Of a stretch of DNA of 64,000 nucleotides, positions 5,366-50,262 are shown one piece after another. The translations under genes were made by a program, and so were the position numbers. Source of the DNA: Syntrophomonadaceae bacterium (GTDB taxonomy: Bacteria; Bacillota; Dethiobacteria; DTU022); the NCBI GenBank assembly GCA_007130825.1, contig SLRT01000033.1, positions 489 to 64,488 on the forward strand, in the 5' to 3' direction. Numbering within the stretch: the stretch's first letter is position 1; each line of letters starts with the position of its first letter. Under the pieces are notes generated by a model. That model did not search any database, had not been told where the DNA came from, and was given only the letters and a program-made list of their open reading frames with translations.

Positions 5366-5513
5366 TACTCTTATCCAGAGTGGAGGAGGGACAGCCCCGA
5401 TGAATCCCGGCAACCGGTTCGTTTGATCACGGTGCTAATTGCTGCGGGGTGGCTAACCTCCCCCCGGGAGATGAGGGGTGCCAGGAAGGCCTCTTGATGT
5501 AGAGGCTTTTTTC
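5366..5513 (+). promoter_or_regulatory. SAM-I riboswitch (S-box) with intrinsic terminator, in the metK leader.
   Basis: CTCTTATCCAGAGTGGAGGAGGGACAGCCCCGATGAATCCCGGCAACC...GGTGCTAATTGCTGC matches the S-box consensus. A terminator hairpin GGCCTCTTGATGTAGAGGC plus TTTTTT lies at 5488-5512. Confidence 0.85.
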
Positions 5514-5753: not shown

Positions 5754-6956
5754 ATGCACCAAAAAAACTATCTATTTTCTTCAGAATCAGTAACCGAGGG
5801 GCATCCGGATAAACTTGCCGACCAGATTTCCGATGCAATTCTCGATGCCATTATGGAGCAGGATCCAAATGGGCGGGTAGCCGCAGAAACAATGCTTACT
5901 ACCGGCTTGGTCCTGGTTTGCGGTGAAATAACCACTGAATGCTATGTTGATATTCCCAAACTGGTCAGGGATAAAGTAAAAGATATCGGCTATACAAGGG
6001 CTAAATATGGTTTTGACGGTGACACCTGCGCGGTGCTTACTTCGATCGATGAGCAGTCACCGGATATTGCCCAGGGTGTTAATGAAGCTTATGAAGTCAG
6101 GAGTAAAAAACAAAAAGATCAGTATGACCTTGTCGGGGCCGGTGATCAGGGGATTATGTTCGGATATGCCTGCGAAGAAACTCCTGAATTGATGCCGATG
6201 CCAATTGCGTTGGCCCATAAGATGGCACAAAGACTGTCCGAGGTGCGCAAAAAAGAAATACTCGACTACTTAAGGCCGGACGGTAAAACCCAGGTCACTG
6301 TGGTCTATAAAAATGGAGAACCTGCCTACCTGGAAAATGTCGTGGTCGCCGCGCACCACAGCGATGAAGTTTCCCTGGAGCAAATAGAAAAGGACCTCGT
6401 TGAACATGTTGTCCGCAAGATCGTTCCTGAGGATCTGATCGTACCTGAAACCCGTTTTTTAATTAATCCGACCGGTCGTTTTGTAGTTGGCGGTCCGCAG
6501 GGTGATGCCGGCCTGACCGGACGAAAAACGATCGTCGATACATATGGTGGTTACGCAGCCCACGGTGGAGGAGCTTTTTCCGGGAAAGATCCGACTAAGG
6601 TCGACCGTTCTGCATCTTATGCGGCCCGTTATGTGGCTAAGAATATAGTGGCCGCCGGCCTGGCCTCCCGGTGCCAGTTTCAACTTGCTTATGCAATCGG
6701 CGTAGCTCACCCCGTTTCTATGATGATTGAAACTTACGATACGGAAAAAGTACCGGTCAGCGTTATTGAAGAAATGGTCAATAAGCATTTTGACCTGCGG
6801 CCGGCTGCGATTATTGACAATCTGAATTTGCGCCGTCCGATTTATCAGCAACTGGCTGCATACGGCCATTTTGGCCGTCCTGAATTAGATTTGCCCTGGG
6901 AAAGGCTGGATAAAGTAGAACAGCTTAGGGAAGCCCTTTCAACCAAGAAATCTTAA
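5754..6956 (+). CDS. metK: S-adenosylmethionine synthetase.
   Basis: [50 protein letters not shown]. Confidence 0.95.
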
Positions 6957-20462: not shown

Positions 20463-21950
20463 GTGATGGAAAGAACAGAAATTAAAATGCTGTATAAATG
20501 GTTGGTTATCTTTATAATTATGCTCATTGGGACGAATGCAGCTAATTATTATTTTTTTCCCGGAGGAGCTGATCCGGACCCCGTTGCTGACGAAGACTCC
20601 AAAACTATAATCAGATATGAGCCAAAAGAGCGTATGTTTGAATCCGAAACAGCAATATTTTGGGAAGCGTTGGAGTCGATCAACGATCATTACTTTTATC
20701 CCGTCGATATTGATGAACTTATCGAAGGGGCGGTTCGGGGGATGATCGATACTCTAGATGACCCCCAGGTCCGATTTTATGATCCCGGTGAACTGGAGGA
20801 ATTTCTTCTCGATACCAGGGGTTCATACGGAGGGGTCGGTATCCGTGTTATCGAAACAGACGAGGAGATCATTGTTTTTGAAGTATTTCCTGATACGCCG
20901 GCAGAAAGAAGTGGTCTAAATCCGGGAGATCTCATCTTGGAAGCTGATGGTTATACGCTGAGCGGAAAGGGTTTGGAGCGGGCCGTCGAGCTTTTACGGG
21001 GACCGAGCGATACTTCGGTTAATGTAAAGATCCAGCGGCCGGGGGCGGAAGATCCGATTGAGCTAACAATTACCAGGGAAGAAATCCAGGTGACCACGGT
21101 GTTCAGCGAAATGCTCGATGAAGGCCTGGGTTATATCAACATCACCAGTTTTGAGAGTAATACGGCCGGTGAGTTTATTGATAGCTTTCATGATCTGGAG
21201 CAAAAAGGCCTGAATAAAGGCTTAATACTGGACTTGCGCAATAATCGGGGTGGCCAGTTTGATCAGGCTGTGGCAGTGGCCAAACAGCTTGTTCCGGAGG
21301 GAGAGATTGCCAGACTGCTTGAAAGGGATCATAGTGTCAGGGAAGTATTTCATTCCAGCGCCGCGGAGAAACCTTATCTGATCGTGGTCCTGATCAATGC
21401 AGAGTCGGCCAGCGCTTCAGAGCTACTGGCCGGTGCCCTGCAGGACAGGGAAGCGGCCTACCTTGTTGGAAAAACTACTTATGGAAAAGCTTCAGTTCAG
21501 CGGCGCGTAGATCTCTCCGGCGGCAATGCCCTGATGCTAACCGTTTACAAATATTTAACTCCATCGGGGAGTAATATAGACAAACACGGGATTACCCCTG
21601 ACTTCAAAGTTGATATGCCTGAAATACTGAGCTATTACCGCTATTTCCACCCCGGCCGTCTGGACGTGGGAGACTTTGGGGCTGATGTAGAAATGTTACA
21701 GGACATACTTAAACAGCTCGGATACAAAGAAGAAAGCACCGGTTATTTCGACGAACAAACTTCGCAGGCTATTTCTGATTTTCAGCTGGATGCGGGAATT
21801 GAGCCCAGCGGGGTGTTTGATGATGTGACCTGGGTTGAGTTACGCCAGGCGCTTGACATAGTTTCGCGGGAGCAGGACGAACAGCTCAACTATGCCCGTG
21901 AATTAATCGGCAAAACCGACCTGGGGAACAAAGTTGGAGGAAATGAATAA
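20463..21950 (+). CDS. S41 carboxyl-terminal processing protease (CtpA/CtpB-like) with PDZ and a C-terminal peptidoglycan-binding domain.
   Basis: PDZ (GLNPGDLILEADG), S41 catalytic region, and a C-terminal PG_binding_1-like repeat (LQDILKQLGY...DFQLDAGI). Confidence 0.85.
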   Translation: MMERTEIKMLYKWLVIFIIMLIGTNAANYYFFPGGADPDPVADEDSKTIIRYEPKERMFESETAIFWEALESINDHYFYPVDIDELIEGAVRGMIDTLDDPQVRFYDPGELEEFLLDTRGSYGGVGIRVIETDEEIIVFEVFPDTPAERSGLNPGDLILEADGYTLSGKGLERAVELLRGPSDTSVNVKIQRPGAEDPIELTITREEIQVTTVFSEMLDEGLGYINITSFESNTAGEFIDSFHDLEQKGLNKGLILDLRNNRGGQFDQAVAVAKQLVPEGEIARLLERDHSVREVFHSSAAEKPYLIVVLINAESASASELLAGALQDREAAYLVGKTTYGKASVQRRVDLSGGNALMLTVYKYLTPSGSNIDKHGITPDFKVDMPEILSYYRYFHPGRLDVGDFGADVEMLQDILKQLGYKEESTGYFDEQTSQAISDFQLDAGIEPSGVFDDVTWVELRQALDIVSREQDEQLNYARELIGKTDLGNKVGGNE

Positions 21951-21953
21951 CCG

Positions 21954-23330
21954 ATGCAGCCATTACTTGAAATAAGCCAGATATTTATCACTACGTTCCT
22001 GTTTGCTTTTATCATGCCCATTTTCTGGATAGTGCTGTTTTTGGTTTACCTGCAATACAGACGCCAGGCTGCCACTGAAAAGCAACTTTTTGGACGAAGT
22101 ATAAACGGGGTTGGCAAACAAATGTTTATGTCGATTGGGCTGGGACTTGTGGGCGGCTTTGCGGCCAGCGCCGTGCTGGTCTTCATGGGTCTGTCCCTGG
22201 AGCAGATAGGTCTTTATTTTATCTGGCCGGTTGCCCTGCTTTTGCTTTTGGTTAATCCCCGCTATTTGTGCTTTTCTTATGCCGGTGGTATTGTTGCTGC
22301 AATGGTTTTGCTTGCCCGCTATATTATAGTTCCCCTGTTTCCAGTTTTATCGGAAAATGTTGTTTTTGAATCACTGCTTAGAATTCATATTCCGGCTTTA
22401 TTGGTGTTGATCGGGCTGCTTCATTTGATTGAGGCCATGTTAATTTATTGCGGCGGACACTGGGGGAGCAGTCCGGTATACCTGAAGAAAGATGATGGCG
22501 AAGTGGTTGGTGCATTTTCGTTGCAGCGTTTTTGGCCACTGCCTCTGGTGGCTTTGCTGGCTACTGTAGTTGCGCAGCCTGAAATTGTGGGAGTCAGCAT
22601 GCCGGAATGGTGGCCGATTCTCCAAACAACCCTGCAGCCCGGGGAGGGTGAAAGCCTGCAGTATATGATCGTACCGGTAGCGGCCGGTCTTGGTTATGGT
22701 GATATGGTTATTTCTTCGACTCCCCGTGAAAGGACCACTTTTTCAGCCAAACACCTGGCTTTTTACAGCCTGGCGCTTCTTATCCTGGCTGTCGGGTCGG
22801 AGTTTTTTTCGCCACTCGTCCTGCTTGGTGTGATTTTTGCTCCCCTGGGCCACGAAATGTTGATTTTGTATGGAAAAAAGAAAGAGGAAAGCCGACCACC
22901 ACGCTATCGTCAGGGAGAAGCTGGAGTGACCTTAATGATGGTATTACCGGGAACTTCTGCTTGTGAATCCGGCTTACTTCAAGACGATGTGATTCTTCGA
23001 GTTAACGGTGATCCGGTAACTGACAACCGGGATCTTCTTGAAAAGATTGAGGCCAGTTATTTTATGGTTTTTTTGGAAGGGGCCCGCGGCGGTAAACCGT
23101 TTTCTGTGGTATTGAAAAAAAAGACCAGGGAAGAATTAAATGGTAAAGATTCTTTTCCTGACAGGTTAAAATCATCCCGTTTAAGTTATTCGCTGTTACA
23201 CCGCAGTACAGAGTTAGGGCTGATTCCAGTTCCTGCTTCGGATTCGGGCGTTTATCTCGAACTTCGCAAACCGGATCCTTTAGCTGGATTTAAACGCTTA
23301 CGGCAAAAAATTAAGAGGGTAAGCATATGA
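21954..23330 (+). CDS. Polytopic membrane protein with a C-terminal PDZ domain. It is S2P-like but has no HExxH motif.
   Basis: About 8 predicted TM helices and a PDZ-like segment VLPGTSACESGLLQDDVILRVNGDPV. No metalloprotease motif was found. Confidence 0.55.
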   Translation: MQPLLEISQIFITTFLFAFIMPIFWIVLFLVYLQYRRQAATEKQLFGRSINGVGKQMFMSIGLGLVGGFAASAVLVFMGLSLEQIGLYFIWPVALLLLLVNPRYLCFSYAGGIVAAMVLLARYIIVPLFPVLSENVVFESLLRIHIPALLVLIGLLHLIEAMLIYCGGHWGSSPVYLKKDDGEVVGAFSLQRFWPLPLVALLATVVAQPEIVGVSMPEWWPILQTTLQPGEGESLQYMIVPVAAGLGYGDMVISSTPRERTTFSAKHLAFYSLALLILAVGSEFFSPLVLLGVIFAPLGHEMLILYGKKKEESRPPRYRQGEAGVTLMMVLPGTSACESGLLQDDVILRVNGDPVTDNRDLLEKIEASYFMVFLEGARGGKPFSVVLKKKTREELNGKDSFPDRLKSSRLSYSLLHRSTELGLIPVPASDSGVYLELRKPDPLAGFKRLRQKIKRVSI

Positions 23331-23486
23331 TAAAAAGAGGGAGTATTTCGCAAATAAATTAAATAACTTTTTTGCGCTCCGTAATTAAGCGGAAACGTAA
23401 AGTTAGGCATATGTAAGCAAACTCAGATCGTTCCTGAGCAAGATTATCAGCCATCTACAAACATATTGTCCCGGGAGGTCCAGTTA

Positions 23487-24054
23487 TTGTTAGCCGCAGC
23501 CGCAGCTGCTTTTATCACTGTATTTATTGCCGAATTTGGTGATAAAACCCAGCTGGTATCTTTAACCATGGCTTGCCGGTATCCACCCCGGCAGGTCCTG
23601 GCCGGAGCGATAATCGCCCTGGCAGCTGTTATCGGCCTTGCCGTAGGAGTCGGAGATGTTCTTTCCGCAGTTATCCCCCGGTTTGTGGTCGTTTTAATTT
23701 CAGGACTGTTTTTTATTGTCATCGGTTTGTTTAGTTACTTTAGCCGGGACATAAAAGTTAAAGAGTACTCGGCCGGTGCCGGATTATTGCAGACTATAGG
23801 CCTGGTCTTCGTAGCCTAATTTGGTGATAAAGACTCAACTGGCAGTGATGTTCCTGGTTGCCAGTTTTGGTTATCCTGTCTCAGTCTTTGCCGGTGCTAT
23901 GGCGGCCATGTTTTTTAACTATCTGCTCGCGGTTTACCTGGGCAGCCGGATTATTTCCCGCTTTAATCCCCGCCTGCTTAAGGTTGGCACTGCCTGGTTG
24001 TTTATTGCAATCGGTACGATTATTATTATAATGGAAGCAGGATCAGGCCTCTAA
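23487..24054 (+). pseudogene. UPF0016 (GDT1/TMEM165/MneA) family two-domain cation transporter gene, disrupted at the second E-x-G-D-K-T motif by an in-frame TAA plus a 1-nt insertion.
   Basis: Domain 1 is FIAEFGDKTQLVSL. At 23814-23840 the reading is VA-TAA-FGDK then a +1 frame change into TQLAVMFLVAS..., the expected second-domain motif. Probable TTG start 23487 with RBS GGGAGG. Confidence 0.6.
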
Positions 24055-24112
24055 CTATGTTATAATTGATCTTAAGCGTCGACAAACAAGCCGCTGAACG
24101 GGAGGTGCCGAT

Positions 24113-26095
24113 ATGTCCGGCAGCAGTGGCTTTAAAATCCGAGCTGACTTTAAACCTACAGGAGATCAACCGGTGGCCATCGAAACCCTGGTGCACGGTT
24201 TAGACCAGGGTTCTCGTTACCAGACCCTGCTCGGTGTAACAGGCTCAGGAAAAACCTTTACCATTGCCAATGTGATCGAGCGAGTTCAGCGTCCAACCCT
24301 GGTAATGGCACCAAATAAAATATTGGCTGCGCAGCTTTGCAGCGAATTCAAAGAGCTTTTTCCGGAAAATGCGGTTGAATACTTTATCAGCTATTATGAT
24401 TATTATCAGCCGGAAGCTTATATCCCCCAGAGCGATACATTTATTGAGAAAGATTCATCGATTAACGATGAGATCGACAAGCTGCGCCACTCGGCTACCA
24501 GCGCTCTCCTGGAGCGTTCTGATGTGATAATCGTAGCTTCCGTATCCTGTATTTATGGACTTGGTTCACCGCATGAATACATGGAGCAGGTGCTTTCTTT
24601 GCGGCCGGGAGCAGGGTTGACCCGGGATGAAATAATCAACCGCCTGGTTGATATCCATTATCAACGCAATGAAATAGATTTTCACCGTGGCACTTTCCGG
24701 GTTCGGGGTGATGTTATCGAGATTATACCTGCTTCATATTCTGAAGCGGCGCTTAGGGTAGAACTCTTTGGCGATGAAATTGAGCGGCTGCGAGAAATTG
24801 ACCTGGTCAGCGGTAAGGTTATCGGTGAACGTTCTCATGTGGCAATATTCCCGGCCACTCATTATGTTACCGCGCCCGACCAGCTACAGCGGGCGGTTGC
24901 CGATATCGAGGCAGAATTGCGGGAGCGGCTTGCCTGTTTCAGGAGCGAGAACAAGCTGCTTGAAGCCCAGCGGCTGGAACAGCGGACCCTTTTTGACTTG
25001 GAGATGCTGCAGGAGATCGGTTTTTGCAGCGGCATTGAAAATTATTCACGGCACCTGGACGGGCGCCCCAAAGGCAGCCGTCCGGCCACCCTGATGGACT
25101 ATTTCCCACCGGAAATGCTGGTCGTAATTGATGAATCGCATATAACCATTCCCCAGATCAACGGGATGTACCGCGGAGACTTTTCGCGCAAGAGCACCCT
25201 TGTCGAACACGGTTTCAGGCTGCCTTCTGCGCTTGACAACCGGCCCCTGAATTTTGGGGAATTTGAATCCCTGGTCAACCAGGCTGTACTGGTTTCGGCC
25301 ACACCGGGACCGTGGGAGCTCGAGCACAGCGAGGCGGTCGTGGAGCAGATTATCCGGCCTACCGGCCTGGCCGATCCTGTGGTGGAAGTCAGGCCGGCAG
25401 AAGGCCAGGTTGACGATCTCTACGGAGAGATCAGGGCCAGGGCTGAAGCCGGACAAAGGGTCCTGGTTACGACTATGACCAAGCGGATGGCTGAGGATCT
25501 TACAGAGTATTACCGGAACATGGAGATAAAGGTGCGCTATATGCATTCCGAGATCGCTGCTCTGGAAAGAATGAGTATTATCAGGGGCCTGCGTCTCGGT
25601 GAGTTCGATGTTCTGATCGGGATTAACCTTCTCCGTGAAGGCCTCGACCTGCCCGAGGTCACCCTGGTCGCAATTTTAGATGCCGACAAAGAAGGGTTTT
25701 TAAGGTCGGATCGTTCATTGATCCAGACCATCGGACGCACTGCCCGTAACGTTGAGGGCCGGGTAATTATGTATGCAGCAGAGGTTACACCTTCCATGCG
25801 TCGGGCTATAGATGAAACGGAACGGCGCCGTATAAAACAGCTGGCATACAACAGGCAATATGATATTACCCCGCAGACCATAGTCAAGCCGATCCGGGCT
25901 TTGATCGAGGCTACGGCGGTCACGGAAGAAACCGGGCGTTACCAGGTTGATGATCTTAAAAAAGTTGAAGCAGGGAAGCGCCGGAAAATGATAAAAGAAC
26001 TGCGCAAAGAAATGAACCAGGCTTCCAAAGAACTGGCCTTTGAAAGAGCGGCGGAACTGCGCGATATGATCTTTGAGCTGGAGAAGCAAGACTAA
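24113..26095 (+). CDS. uvrB: Excinuclease ABC subunit B.
   Basis: [10 protein letters not shown], helicase motifs, C-terminal UVR domain ([13 protein letters not shown]). Confidence 0.95.
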
Positions 26096-26156
26096 CCAGC
26101 GAACGGGACGGCTCTTGTGCCTGGTCTGTTAAAAATATTTGAACGAGGTGACCGAT

Positions 26157-28991
26157 TTGTCAGTTGGAGAAATTGTTATCCGCGGGGCGCGTGAACACAA
26201 TTTGAAAAATATTAACCTGGTCCTGCCCCGCAACCAGTTTATGGTATTTACCGGTCTGAGCGGCTCGGGAAAGTCTTCCCTGGCTTTTGATACAATATAT
26301 GCAGAGGGACAGCGTCGCTATGTCGAATCACTTTCAGCCTATGCAAGGCAATTTCTGGGACAAATGGTAAAACCTGATATAGACCAGATTGAAGGCCTTT
26401 CACCGGCGATTTCGATTGATCAAAAAACATCATCCCGCAATCCGCGTTCCACGGTGGGCACGGTAACGGAAGTGTATGATTATGTTCGCCTTCTTTTTGC
26501 CCGGATTGGTAATCCACACTGCCCACGCTGTGAAAAACCGATCAGCCAGCAAACAGTGCAGCAGATTGTTGATCAAGTAGCCGGTATGCCGGATGGAACG
26601 CGTATTCAGGTTCTTGCTCCCCTGGTCAGTGGCCGTAAAGGGGAGTATTCGCAGCTTTTTGAAGAAATGAGCCGCAAGGGTTATGTTCGGGTCAGGGTCG
26701 ACGGAGAAGTCCGTGAACTGGAAGAAGAAATCAAGCTTGACCGGCAAAAAAAACATTCCATCGAAGTTGTTGTCGATCGACTGATCATCCGGGAAGGTAT
26801 CCAGGCCCGCCTGGCTGATTCACTGGAAAATGCTCTAAAACTCAGTGAAGGCCTGGTCCTGGTCCAGGAAGTTGACGGTGGCGAACAGCTCTTCAGCGAG
26901 AATTTTGCCTGTGCTGAATGCGGTTTCAGCTTTGAAGAGATCAGCCCGCGAATATTTTCATTTAACAGTCCTTACGGGGCCTGCCCTGAATGCAGCGGCC
27001 TGGGCAACAAAGCAGAATTTTCTGCTGACCTGGTTATTCCCCACCCCGAATTGTCGCTGCGCGAAGGAGCTGTTCATCCCTGGTCCGGTCAAAACTATTA
27101 TCAGCAGTTTATGGAAGCGGCGGCGAAGGCATGGGGCGTGGATTTGGATACACCTTTCCAAGAACTTGCTCCGGAAGAGCAGCACAGGATTCTTTATGGT
27201 GCGTCGGAGAAAATCAATTTCCGTTATGTAAATATGTTTAAAAGAGTTCGTCACTATAAAAAAGCATTTCCCGGGGTGCTTAAGCTCCTGGAGAGACGTT
27301 ATGCTTCGACAACTTCCGAAGAGATGCGAGATGATATGGAGCGCTTTATGCAGGTTAAACCTTGTCCCGCCTGTGCAGGAAAACGTCTGAAGCCTTCCAG
27401 CCTTGCTGTTTTGCTGGGCGGTTGTAATATTGCAGAGGTCTCGGCTTTGACCGTTGAACAGGCAGCCGGTTTTTTTGAGCAGCTGCAGCTTACTTCGCGC
27501 GAAGAACATATTGCCCGCCAGGTGCTGAAAGAAATTGCTGAGCGCCTGCAGTTTTTACGCAATGTCGGCCTGCAGTACCTCAACCTTGACCGGGCAGCAT
27601 CGACTCTTTCCGGCGGAGAAGCACAGCGGATCAGGCTGGCCACTCAGATTGGTTCCGGCCTGACCGGTGTAATCTATATTCTGGATGAACCTTCCATCGG
27701 CCTGCACCAGAGGGACAATGCCCGCTTGATCACCACCCTGAAAGCGCTGCGTGATCTCGGTAATACAGTCCTTGTAGTCGAACATGACGAGGAAACCATC
27801 CGCAGCGCTGATCACCTGGTCGATATCGGGCCGGGGGCAGGTGCCGCCGGAGGCAGGATTGTCGCCCAGGGGACAGTGGAGGAAATTACCCGGGCAGCGG
27901 ATTCCATTACTGGGGACTATTTAGCCGGCCGGCGTTCCGTTGCCGTTCCGGAACAGAGGCGTGCTGCAAATGATCGCTGGTTGTGGATACGAGGAGCCCG
28001 GGAACACAACCTGAAAAATATCGACGTGGGTATCCCGCTTGGCCTTTTTATCTGTGTTGCCGGCGTATCAGGTTCGGGGAAAAGCACCCTGATCAATGAA
28101 ATATTAGCCCGTGCCCTGGCTCGAAAACTGCACCGCTCAAGGGAACAGGCCGGGAAGCACAGAGGCCTGGATGGAGTGGAATATCTTGACAAGGTGATCG
28201 TTATTAACCAGTCTCCGATCGGACGGACGCCGCGGTCCAATCCGGCAACCTATACCGGCTTGTTTGACGGTATTCGCGAGCTGTTTGCCAAAACCGCTGA
28301 ATCACGTCGCCGGGGGTATAAACCGGGACGCTTTAGCTTTAATGTCAAGGGTGGGCGTTGTGAGGCCTGCCGTGGTGACGGCATTTTGCGGATTGAAATG
28401 CACTTTTTACCCGACGTCTATGTTCCCTGCGAAGTGTGCCGGGGCAAGCGCTATAACCGGGAAACCCTGGAAGTGCGTTATAAAGAAAAAAATATTGCCG
28501 ATGTCCTGGATATGACTGTTGAAGAAGCGCTTGATTTTTTCTCGGCTATTCCGAAAGTGCAGCGTAAACTGCAGCTGCTTTATGACGTGGGGCTTGGTTA
28601 CATCAGGCTTGGGCAGCCGGCGACCACCCTTTCCGGCGGCGAAGCCCAGCGGGTTAAGCTGGCTACGGAGCTGTCAAGGCGCAGCAACGGGCGCAGCCTC
28701 TATATCCTGGATGAACCGACTACCGGCTTGCACCTTGATGATATAAACAAGTTACTGGTTATTCTTGATCGGCTGGTTGAAAGCGGCAACACGGTGGTGG
28801 TTATTGAACATAACCTGGAAGTACTTAAACGGGCAGATCATATTATCGATCTCGGCCCGGAAGGCGGAGACGAAGGCGGCCGGGTTGTCGCCACAGGTTC
28901 CCCCGAAGAGGTGGCTTCCTGCAAAGTATCATACACCGGCCAATGGCTGGCTGGTATTCTGCCGGAAAAGCTGCCGGCAGCGGAAATTTGA
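26157..28991 (+). CDS. uvrA: Excinuclease ABC subunit A.
   Basis: Two ABC modules ([18 protein letters not shown]) and zinc fingers CxxC. RBS GAGGTG before TTG 26157, giving [18 protein letters not shown]. The track ORF starts at TTG 26139. Confidence 0.95.
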
Positions 28992-44073: not shown

Positions 44074-44424
44074 GGGGGCGTAAGGATTCGACGAGGGTTG
44101 TGGAAGCAGAAGTGGCAAGCCCAGGACCATGCCCTGGATAAAACATGGAACGGCTATAAACGCCAAACCTAATTACGCACTCGCTGCTTAAATAAGCAGC
44201 GCATCTCTCCTTTCCCTGGCCGGGGGAAAGGTAAGGGGTGTCAAAAAACCGGCCTACCAAAGCAGCGGTTGTCTCTCCGCTGTTTTGGGAAATTTAAAGG
44301 GACTGGCGCTCAAAGATCTTGTTTCGGGGAGCTTTGGGCGCGAGAAACAAAACCGGAACTAAGCTTGTAGAAACTTCTGCAGCCGGGCCCTCGGACGCGG
44401 GTTCGATTCCCGCCGCCTCCACCA
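44074..44424 (+). ncRNA. ssrA: Transfer-messenger RNA (tmRNA, SsrA).
   Basis: 5' GGGGGCGTAAGGATTCGACG and 3' GGTTCGATTCCCGCCGCCTCCACCA form the tRNA-Ala-like domain with a G3-U pair. The internal tag ORF ends ...PNYALAA-TAA. It lies immediately downstream of smpB. Confidence 0.9.
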
Positions 44425-44549: not shown

Positions 44550-44625
44550 GGGCGTGTAGCTCAGCTGGGAGAGCACTTGGCTCGCACTCAAGAGGTCAGG
44601 GGTTCGAGTCCCCTCACGTCCACCA
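44550..44625 (+). tRNA. tRNA-Ala (anticodon CGC).
   Basis: Manual cloverleaf: acceptor GGGCGTG/CACGTCC with the G3-U70 Ala identity pair, anticodon loop CTCGCAC, T-loop TTCGAGT, and an encoded CCA. A TATAAT box lies upstream. Confidence 0.85.
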
Positions 44626-49209: not shown

Positions 49210-50022
49210 ATGTTAAAAGGGTTGTTTGCGCTTTCAACTTGTTTCCTGATCCTGATCCCGTTGCTTGTTGCCGCCGGTTGCAATGCCGACCGGTCTAACG
49301 CCTTTAGTTCTGAAAATGGCGAAGCAGACTATAAAAATGGAAAGGACGTCAATTTCATGGAAGAAAATATTATTTTAGATGAATCAAAACCCTTGCTCGA
49401 TCAGAATATACCAAAACACCTGGAAACTGCTACTTTGGCCACGGGCTGATTCTGGGGCCCTGATGCCCGGCTCGGGCAAATGGAAGGTGTTTACAGGACC
49501 CGGGTTGGTTATGGCGGAGGCAGCCTGGATAATCCCACTTACCGCAATTTGGGTGATCATACCGAGGTTTTTCAGATCGATTATGATCCGCAGCATTTAT
49601 CTTACGAAGATATCTTACAGCTGTTTTGGGAAAATCACGATCCGGCCGCAAAGATCTGGTCCCGGCAGTACATGGCCATTATATTTTTCCACAACGCTGA
49701 GCAGGAAAAAGCGGCGCGTCGCAGCAAAGAAAAAGTCGAACAGCAAGTAGGTTCCACTATTTATACCGAGGTGCAGCCCTATACCAAATTTTACCTGGCT
49801 GAAGATTACCATCAAAAATATTACCTGCAAAATGTACCGGAGCTTGCCGGGGAAATTAAAGCTTACTATCCGGAATTCAGCGATTTTGTCAATTCAACTG
49901 TCGCTGCCCGGCTTAATGGTTTAGTTGGCGGTTACGGAGATGCTGCCCTGCTGGAGAAAGAGCTTGACAGCTACGGCCTTTCTTCCCGTGGACGGGAACT
50001 GCTGCAGGATATCGTATATTAA
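49210..50022 (+). CDS. msrA: Peptide methionine sulfoxide reductase MsrA, selenocysteine-containing (UGA at 49447-49449), with an N-terminal lipoprotein-type signal peptide.
   Basis: Translation across the TGA reads ETATLATG-U-FWGPDARLGQMEGVYRTRVGYGGG...GDHTEVFQIDYDP...LFWENHDP, so the MsrA catalytic GCFWG motif has TGA at the Cys position. A hairpin GCCCG-GCT-CGGGC lies 15 nt downstream. The N-terminus is MLKGLFALSTCFLILIPLLVAAGC. Confidence 0.8.
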
Positions 50023-50187: not shown

Positions 50188-50262
50188 GGGGACGTAGCTC
50201 AGTGGGAGAGCGCTTGATTCACATTCAAGAGGCCGTGGGTTCAAAACCCTCCGTCCCCACCA
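50188..50262 (+). tRNA. tRNA-Val (anticodon CAC).
   Basis: Manual cloverleaf: acceptor GGGGACG/CGTCCCC, anticodon stem CTTGA/TCAAG with loop TTCACAT, T-loop TTCAAAA, encoded CCA. There is one U-U mismatch in the T-stem. Confidence 0.75.

What the first reader, a model, noticed from the sequence alone, without database searches (positions are those of the whole stretch)
23466..24054. UPF0016/GDT1-family cation (Mn/Ca) transporter gene broken exactly at its second ExGDKT motif
ORF 23466-23819 carries domain 1 (AEFGDKTQLVSL). The expected domain-2 motif is interrupted: ...GLVFVA TAA TTT GGT GAT AAA G ACT CAA CTG..., that is, a stop where Glu is expected (VA-E-FGDK) and one extra G. The remainder (TQLAVMFLVAS...) continues in the +1 frame as ORF 23821-24054.

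Two lesions within 15 nt of an otherwise intact gene is odd. It could be recent inactivation, a sequencing or assembly artefact, or an unusual split.
Basis: seen in the sequence. Interest (0 to 1): 0.5.

Follow-up and report, generated by a model that had tools for sequence, protein, structure and literature searches.

The report
Recently broken GDT1 cation-transporter gene
A manganese/calcium transporter gene in an uncultured soda-lake bacterium carries a premature stop and a one-base insertion 14 bases apart; both are real and present in every sampled copy, so this is an ordinary, recently formed pseudogene and not an error or a new gene arrangement.

Summary
A GDT1/UPF0016 (PF01169) gene at 23487-24054 is cut inside its second E-x-G-D-K-T motif by TAA (23817-23819) where Glu is expected. 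A one-base insertion 14 nt downstream moves the rest of domain 2 into the +1 frame.

It is not an assembly artefact. Twelve contigs from independent assemblies are 99.9-100% identical to the window, and all carry both lesions. They include MAGs of 'Syntrophomonadaceae bacterium' from three Kulunda soda lakes.

No intact or single-lesion allele turned up among 5.8 billion proteins. The syntenic orthologues, at 69-77% amino-acid identity, are single intact 188-aa genes reading GCC GAA TTT GGT GAT AAG ACT. The lesions are therefore G->T (GAA->TAA) and most likely an extra A (AAG->AAAG), not an extra G.

With both lesions repaired, the gene aligns without gaps, keeps the conserved residues, shows no rate acceleration, and has dN/dS of 0.17-0.19, including downstream of the stop. 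The inactivation is therefore recent.

A working two-gene split is unlikely. ORF2 lacks Glu, Gly and Asp of motif 2, TM4 is cut in half, ORF2 has no ribosome-binding site, and no relative is split.

Verdict: an ordinary, fixed, young pseudogene of low interest.

The parts
23472..23477 (+). Shine-Dalgarno-like GGGAGG, 9 nt upstream of the probable TTG start at 23487
   Evidence: Read directly from the sequence. The GGGAGG/GGAGG/GGTGG-plus-start arrangement is conserved in the alignment with orthologues L091, L092 and L095.
23487..23819 (+). Truncated 5' reading frame (110 aa). It holds a complete GDT1 domain 1 (TM1-3, motif AEFGDKT), the central loop and the first half of TM4, and ends at the premature TAA. 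The mechanical ORF starts earlier, at TTG 23466.
   Evidence: PF01169 E=9e-21, profile positions 2-75. The product is identical to P0075 and P0122, which were called on at least 20 contigs.
23817..23819 (+). Premature stop TAA at the Glu codon of the second E-x-G-D-K-T motif (GAA->TAA, a G->T change at 23817)
   Evidence: Orthologues L091, L092 and L095 all read GCC/GCT GAA TTT GG at this position. Glu is invariant in 41 aligned homologues.
23829..23832 (+). AAAG, the site of the one-base insertion. Orthologues have AAG (Lys) followed by ACT. The insertion moves the rest of the gene into the +1 frame.
   Evidence: L091 and L095 read GAT AAG ACT CAG/CAA. The window reads GAT AAA G ACT CAA.
23833..24054 (+). 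Remainder of GDT1 domain 2 (TQLAVMFLVAS... through to the stop) in the +1 frame. It is listed mechanically as ORF 23821-24054, and gene callers in public assemblies report a 68-aa product starting at ATG 23848.
   Evidence: PF01169 E=2.4e-13, profile positions 15-75 only. tblastn of the repaired protein gives 100% identity over residues 115-188 at 23830-24051. The 68-aa product is P0123.

Best explanation
This is a real, recently formed pseudogene of a two-domain GDT1/UPF0016 (TMEM165/MneA-type) Mn2+/Ca2+ transporter. It is carried by every sampled copy of a nearly clonal population of an uncultured Syntrophomonadaceae bacterium from Siberian soda-lake sediments.

The ancestral gene was a single 188-codon reading frame lying between a PDZ-domain membrane protein gene and uvrB. 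Two small mutations 14 nt apart destroyed it:
- a G->T change turned the motif-2 glutamate codon GAA into TAA;
- a one-base insertion, most likely AAG->AAAG, shifted the frame.

Translation now stops after 110 residues, which cover domain 1, the central loop and half of TM4. The second half is not expected to be made, and it would lack the cation-binding Glu, Gly and Asp in any case. The transporter is therefore non-functional.

Shown here: the lesions, their reproducibility, the intact orthologues, and the absence of decay elsewhere in the gene. Inferred: loss of function, whether the two lesions arose together or one after the other, and whether the loss was neutral or advantageous.
For: **1. 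The lesions are real and reproducible.** Ten loci (L001-L010) are 99.91-100% identical to the window, and all contain the identical 61-nt core with both lesions.
- They come from four NCBI MAGs, one ENA assembly and five Logan assemblies of separate SRA runs.
- Two further JGI contigs, from samples 3300027784 and 3300000365, carry the same core.
- Three of the MAGs (PUKY, PWFD and PXFK) are 'Syntrophomonadaceae bacterium' bins from sediments labelled B1, T1 and T3 (supplementary file 4 of PMC6146748).
- The contigs differ at a few SNPs (22943, 23696, 24731, 25705), so they are not copies of one assembly.

**2. No other allele is known.** A search of 5.8 billion proteins found no intact or single-lesion allele. 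The only hit above 77% identity is the 110-aa truncated product.

**3. The orthologues are intact.** L091, L092 and L095 have the same gene order (S41 peptidase, 458-aa PDZ protein, GDT1, uvrB, uvrA) and are single 188-aa genes. They read GCC GAA TTT GGY GAT AAG/AAA ACT/ACC at this point.

**4. The repaired gene shows no decay.**
- It aligns without gaps at 188 aa.
- It departs from only 2 of 63 columns that are at least 90% conserved. The mean for intact homologues is 2.15.
- Tajima relative-rate counts are 17 vs 14 and 15 vs 14, with chi-square below 0.3.
- dN/dS against L091 is 0.19 overall and 0.165 for the part downstream of the stop, with dS of 0.68.

**5. Loss of function is expected from published work.** Ala substitutions of Glu116 and Asp119 in motif 2 of Vibrio cholerae MneA abolish complementation (review PMC7380456). 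One half of a naturally paired UPF0016 gene set does not complement when expressed alone (PMC4067407).
Against: - Two lesions only 14 nt apart, in a gene that is otherwise perfectly preserved, is mildly unexpected for independent neutral hits (about 5% by chance). A clustered mutational event or some selection on the arrangement cannot be excluded.
- The +1 insertion places TTG (23821) and GTG (23824) in frame with the rest of domain 2 directly after the stop. Reinitiation there is conceivable.
- I had no raw reads and no expression or protein data.
- All carriers belong to one near-clonal lineage. 'Fixed' therefore means fixed in the sampled population, not across a deep clade.
- The closest intact relative is only 77% identical, so the date of inactivation is bounded only loosely.
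Confidence: 0.9

Rival explanations
1. Sequencing or assembly artefact: the true genome has GAA and no extra base.
For: The extra base sits in a short A run (AAA), and two errors close together can occur in a low-quality stretch. The window itself carries no read-level information.
Against: Twelve contigs from independent samples, assemblers and archives (NCBI MAGs, ENA MEGAHIT contigs, Logan per-run assemblies, JGI) carry exactly the same two lesions, while differing at SNPs elsewhere. No intact allele exists in the protein collection. A 3-base run is not an error-prone homopolymer, and a G->T nonsense change is not a typical systematic error.
Confidence: 0.01
2. Functional gene fission: ORF1 (domain 1) and ORF2 (domain 2) are both made and assemble as a heterodimer, like the paired single-domain UPF0016 genes of cyanobacteria. 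ORF2 would be translated by termination-reinitiation at TTG 23821 or GTG 23824.
For: - Paired single-domain UPF0016 genes exist and work together (PMC4067407).
- The insertion puts TTG/GTG in frame with domain 2 only 1-4 nt after the stop.
- The region downstream of the stop shows no decay (dN/dS 0.165).
- The arrangement is fixed in the sampled population.
Against: - The cut is not at the domain boundary. It falls inside TM4 and inside the motif. ORF2 would begin M-V-I-K-T-Q-L and lack Glu, Gly and Asp of motif 2, residues whose substitution in MneA abolishes function.
- No Shine-Dalgarno sequence precedes 23821, 23824 or 23848. The genuine starts nearby have GGGAGG.
- None of the syntenic relatives is split.
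- The lack of decay is equally explained by a young age.
Confidence: 0.04
3. ORF1 alone is a working single-domain ('singleton') UPF0016 protein that forms an antiparallel homodimer.
For: Singleton UPF0016 proteins of about 100 residues exist and complement a yeast gdt1 mutant (PMC4067407). ORF1 keeps a complete domain 1 with an intact AEFGDKT motif.
Against: - By my count on the sequence, Lys+Arg are distributed 5 in loop 1 plus the central loop against 1 in loop 2. This strong bias is typical of a fixed orientation. Singletons show weak bias, which allows dual topology (criterion from PMC4067407).
- A single fixed-topology member of a pair does not complement alone.
- ORF1 ends with half of a hydrophobic TM4, which is likely to disturb insertion.
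Confidence: 0.03
4. Programmed recoding: the TAA is read through and the ribosome shifts +1 at AAA-G, giving a full-length protein.
For: On A-AAG, tRNA-Lys could in principle re-pair after a +1 shift. The organism does recode one stop codon elsewhere: a TGA sits at the catalytic position of MsrA.
Against: - This needs two separate rare events within 5 codons.
- TAA is not a selenocysteine codon.
- No stimulatory features are present: there is no slow codon or stop in the A site at the shift site, and no upstream Shine-Dalgarno sequence at the right spacing.
- No RNA family matches the region.
- Relatives have a plain open frame, so nothing is conserved.
Confidence: 0.005

Closest known systems
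Two-domain ('fusion') bacterial GDT1/UPF0016 transporters, e.g. Vibrio cholerae MneA (Mn2+ exporter); Pfam PF01169
   Same: Same family (PF01169 hits on both halves). The repaired gene has the same ~188-aa, 2 x 3 TM architecture with two E-x-G-D-K-T motifs. It is a syntenic orthologue of intact genes in related Syntrophomonadaceae MAGs.
   Different: As encoded here, the second motif is destroyed by a stop at Glu plus a frameshift, so the gene is a pseudogene. No yybP-ykoY Mn riboswitch lies upstream, although the review reports one for most of the bacterial UPF0016 genes it screened.
Paired single-domain UPF0016 genes of cyanobacteria (Demaegd et al. 2014, PMC4067407)
   Same: Two adjacent reading frames on the same strand, each matching one GDT1 domain.
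   Different: In true pairs each gene has its own complete motif and its own start, and the split lies between domains. Here the split lies inside TM4 and motif 2, ORF2 lacks Glu, Gly and Asp and has no ribosome-binding site, and relatives are not split.
Ordinary young bacterial pseudogenes (nonsense plus frameshift, no other decay)
   Same: Disabling point lesions in a gene whose orthologues are intact. No accelerated evolution yet. Fixed in a low-diversity population.
   Different: Nothing essential. The only oddity is that the two lesions lie 14 nt apart in the most conserved motif.

Membership tests
GDT1/UPF0016 (PF01169), by descent | Significant match to the PF01169 profile above the gathering score | tested here: met
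   ORF1 scores 74.4 bits and ORF2 50.7 bits against a cut-off of 27. The repaired protein scores 137.6 bits with two domains.
GDT1/UPF0016 (PF01169), by descent | Orthology and synteny with intact family members | tested here: met
   Gene order is the same as in L092 and L095, and over its shorter span in L091. Identity is 69-77% without gaps over 188 aa.
GDT1/UPF0016, functional two-domain transporter | Two intact copies of E-phi-G-D-(K/R)-(S/T), one at the start of each 3-TM domain | tested here: not met
   Motif 1 (AEFGDKT) is intact. In motif 2 the Glu codon is TAA and the frame shifts after Lys.
GDT1/UPF0016, functional two-domain transporter | Single polypeptide of about 190 aa with six TM spans | tested here: not met
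   The frame ends after 110 aa. The rest lies in the +1 frame.
GDT1/UPF0016, functional two-domain transporter | Mn2+/Ca2+ transport activity | not testable with these tools
   This needs complementation or transport assays.
Paired single-domain UPF0016 genes | Each gene of the pair carries its own complete consensus motif | tested here: not met
   ORF2 begins (M)VIKTQL or MFLVAS and matches the profile only from position 15.
Paired single-domain UPF0016 genes | Second gene has its own ribosome-binding site and start, and the split is conserved in relatives | tested here: not met
   No purine-rich Shine-Dalgarno sequence lies before 23821, 23824 or 23848. All syntenic relatives are unsplit.
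Programmed +1 frameshift / stop-codon recoding | Recoding site conserved in orthologues, with stimulatory elements (a slow A-site codon or stop at the shift site, an upstream Shine-Dalgarno sequence, or an RNA structure) | tested here: not met
   Orthologues have an uninterrupted frame. There is no Rfam match. The stop is TAA and lies 4 codons upstream of the shift site, not at it.

The most novel reading that the evidence does not exclude
The double lesion is not a simple loss but a fixed gene fission. ORF1 (domain 1) works alone or together with a reinitiated ORF2 that lacks the canonical motif. This would be a natural reversal of the fusion step proposed for the evolution of antiparallel two-domain UPF0016 transporters.
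Probability: 0.04. Interest if true: 0.5.

Novelty: already known. Interest (0 to 1): 0.1.

Why it matters
It matters little beyond correct annotation. The two reading frames should be annotated as one pseudogene, not as two small 'GDT1 family proteins'.

The case does show that this soda-lake Syntrophomonadaceae population has recently lost a Mn/Ca transporter that its relatives keep. That could reflect the very low free Mn2+ and Ca2+ in carbonate-rich, high-pH brines. It could equally reflect drift in a nearly clonal population. I tested neither idea.

It is also a useful example of using independent public assemblies as a stand-in for read-level validation.

Tried and rejected
- **Riboswitch or other RNA element.** I scanned the whole window at gathering threshold and 23250-24150 at E<=10. 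The only hit was a chance-level RsmY match (E=6.5). No yybP-ykoY riboswitch was found.
- **A template for the two lesions.** I looked for an ectopic copy, a direct repeat or a quasi-palindrome. The 22-mer GCCTAATTTGGTGATAAAGACT has no other match with up to 3 mismatches in the window. The repeat scan found only the expected internal similarity between the two motifs (27 nt, 81%) and short chance-level inverted repeats. Conversion from motif 1 would have restored GAA, not created TAA.
- **Intact or single-lesion alleles in JGI metagenome contigs.** A degenerate pattern search returned 0 hits and did not even find the broken allele. That collection evidently lacks these contigs, so the result says nothing either way.
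- **The window's own species in the GTDB genome scan.** It did give the family-level placement of relatives as Syntrophomonadaceae.
- **A paralogue in the window.** tblastn of the repaired protein found only the gene itself and its internal domain similarity.
- **Other broken genes in the window.** The only other in-frame stop I found is a TGA at the catalytic Cys position of MsrA, which is probably selenocysteine.
- **Structure prediction.** I judged it unnecessary and did not run it.

Full report
**1. Observation**

The sequence at 23799-23860 reads GGC CTG GTC TTC GTA GCC TAA TTT GGT GAT AAA G ACT CAA CTG GCA GTG ATG.
- ORF 23466-23819 (117 aa) contains AEFGDKTQLVSL and matches Pfam PF01169 (GDT1) over profile positions 2-75 (E=9e-21).
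- ORF 23821-24054 lies in the +1 frame and matches the same profile only from position 15 (E=2.4e-13).
- A conceptual repair, with TAA changed to Glu and one base removed, gives a protein with two complete GDT1 domains (E=1.7e-40).

The likely true start is TTG 23487. It lies 9 nt after GGGAGG and coincides with the starts of the orthologues.

**2. Is it an artefact?**

The truncated 110-aa product (P0075, and P0122 with JGI's Leu start) is on record for at least 20 contigs.
- Ten fetched loci are 99.91-100% identical to the window over 2.3-6.3 kb. They come from NCBI MAGs GCA_003550705.1, GCA_003553735.1, GCA_003564435.1 and GCA_007120945.1, ENA ERZ27301263, and Logan assemblies of SRR13089369, SRR13089370, SRR13089372, SRR16248206 and SRR7083931.
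- All ten contain the identical 61-nt core with both lesions.
- Two JGI contigs, from samples 3300027784 and 3300000365 'SL_9KL_010_SED', contain it too.
- The contigs differ from one another at a handful of SNPs (22943, 23696, 24731, 25705). They are therefore independent samples of a low-diversity population, not copies of one assembly.
- Three of the MAGs (PUKY, PWFD and PXFK) are listed as 'Syntrophomonadaceae bacterium' bins B1Sed10_63, T1Sed10_56 and T3Sed10_85R1 in supplementary file 4 of Vavourakis et al. 2018 (PMC6146748). They come from the sediments of three different soda lakes.

An assembly or sequencing error is excluded for practical purposes.

**3. Relatives**

- Nearly all are 183-202 aa two-domain proteins from Bacillota MAGs, and the best is 77% identical.
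- The only hit above 77% is the truncated product itself. No intact allele and no single-lesion allele of this lineage is known.
- The closest relatives (L091 at 77%, L092 at 70%, L095 at 69%) lie in the same context: S41 CtpB-like peptidase, 458-aa PDZ membrane protein, GDT1, uvrB, uvrA.
- All three are single uninterrupted 188-codon genes.
- At the break they read GCC GAA TTT GGT GAT AAG ACT CAG (L091), GCC GAA TTT GGC GAT AAA ACC CAG (L092) and GCT GAA TTT GGC GAT AAG ACT CAA (L095).

The window therefore differs by a G->T change at 23817 (GAA->TAA) and by one extra base in AAG->AAAG (23829-23832). The extra base is most simply an A that extended a two-base run. Three bases is too short a run to call a slippage hotspot.

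**4. Age of the lesions**

Repaired, the gene aligns without gaps with its orthologues.
- It departs from the consensus in only 2 of 63 columns that are at least 90% conserved among 40 homologues (L->R in PPLQ and H->Y in NH). Intact homologues average 2.15.
- Tajima-type relative-rate counts give 17 lineage-specific changes in the window against 14 in L091 with L092 as outgroup, and 15 against 14 with L095 (chi-square below 0.3).
- dN/dS against L091 is 0.19 overall and 0.165 for the part downstream of the stop, with dS of 0.68.

The downstream half has thus been under purifying selection for almost the whole branch. By inference, the inactivation occupies only a small final fraction of that branch. 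It does predate the common ancestor of the sampled near-clonal population.

**5. Functional consequence (inferred)**

The family is defined by one or two E-phi-G-D-(K/R)-(S/T) motifs at the start of each 3-TM domain, and it works as an antiparallel dimer or pseudo-dimer (PMC4067407).
- Ala substitutions of Glu116 and Asp119 in motif 2 of V. cholerae MneA abolish complementation of an E. coli mntP mutant (review PMC7380456).
- Here the Glu codon is a stop, and the Gly-Asp-Lys that follow are read in neither product.
- ORF2, if translated at all, would start M-V-I-K-T-Q-L (TTG 23821), or MFLVAS at ATG 23848 as gene callers in public assemblies predict.
- No Shine-Dalgarno sequence precedes any of these starts. 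The genuine starts of GDT1 and uvrB both have GGGAGG.
- ORF1 alone has a strong Lys+Arg bias: 5 in loop 1 plus the central loop against 1 in loop 2, by my count on the sequence. That is the signature of a fixed orientation, not of a dual-topology singleton.
- One fixed-orientation member of a natural pair does not complement alone.

The best reading is a non-functional gene.

**6. Why two lesions so close?**

I found no template that would explain both. There is no second copy of the 22-mer in the window and no convincing repeat.

Chance adjacency has a probability of about 0.05. A single clustered mutational event, or a neutral second hit after the first, would each explain it. I cannot tell these apart. 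No intermediate allele exists in public data, and a pattern scan of JGI metagenome contigs was uninformative because it returned 0 hits even for the known allele.

**7. Other readings**

Programmed recoding is very unlikely.
- It would need TAA read-through and a +1 shift within five codons.
- There are no stimulatory elements and no RNA family match.
- The site is not conserved in relatives.

The window does contain a probable selenoprotein. An MsrA gene has TGA at the catalytic Cys position (GUFWG). That case uses TGA, not TAA, and has no bearing here.

**8. Comparison and novelty**

By descent this is a member of GDT1/UPF0016. It fails the defining features of a functional member: a second intact motif and a single six-TM polypeptide. 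It also fails the features of a paired single-domain arrangement.

It is an ordinary young pseudogene. The only mild curiosities are these:
- the lesions are adjacent and lie in the most conserved motif;
- they are fixed across three lakes;
- this clade lacks the yybP-ykoY riboswitch reported for most screened bacterial UPF0016 genes.

Interest is low. The practical consequence is annotation as a single pseudogene.

Noticed in passing
window 49381-50022 (+), TGA at 49447-49449: An MsrA gene (PF01625, E=2.5e-33, plus PF20939 'Selenoprotein MsrA helical domain') has an in-frame TGA exactly at the catalytic Cys position (...ATLATG-TGA-FWGPDA). It is probably a selenocysteine MsrA, not a broken gene. 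A hairpin follows the TGA, but its folding energy is no better than that of shuffled sequence (z=0.17), so no SECIS element was established.
   Followed up: partly
window 23331-23486: The spacer upstream of the GDT1 gene is 156 nt and AT-rich, against 31-75 nt in orthologous loci L091, L092 and L095. The extra ~90 nt does not align with them. GCATATG occurs at both 23323-23329 and 23407-23413, which may mark a small insertion with a duplicated target. There is no Rfam match and no yybP-ykoY riboswitch.
   Followed up: partly
window 24005-24032 (+): A promoter-like site, TTGCAA-16 nt-TATAAT (10 of 12 matches), lies inside the 3' end of the GDT1 pseudogene about 80 nt upstream of the uvrB start (24113). 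It could be the uvrB promoter. It is a consensus match only.
   Followed up: no
window 20487-26819 and loci L001-L010, L097, L098: Contigs from MAGs of three different Kulunda soda lakes and from several separate sequencing runs differ from the window by 0-3 SNPs over 2.3-6.3 kb. This Syntrophomonadaceae population is therefore nearly clonal across lakes.
   Followed up: partly
window 21954-23330 (+): A 458-aa predicted membrane protein has only a sub-threshold PDZ match (PF13180, 24.5 bits against a cut-off of 27). It sits in the same position, between the CtpB-like S41 peptidase and GDT1, in all relatives examined. Its function is unknown.
   Followed up: no
window 44074-44424, 5368-5477, 44550-44622, 50188-50259: The window also holds a tmRNA (204 bits), a SAM-I riboswitch (79 bits) upstream of the ORF at 5754-6956, and two tRNAs. 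All look ordinary.
   Followed up: no
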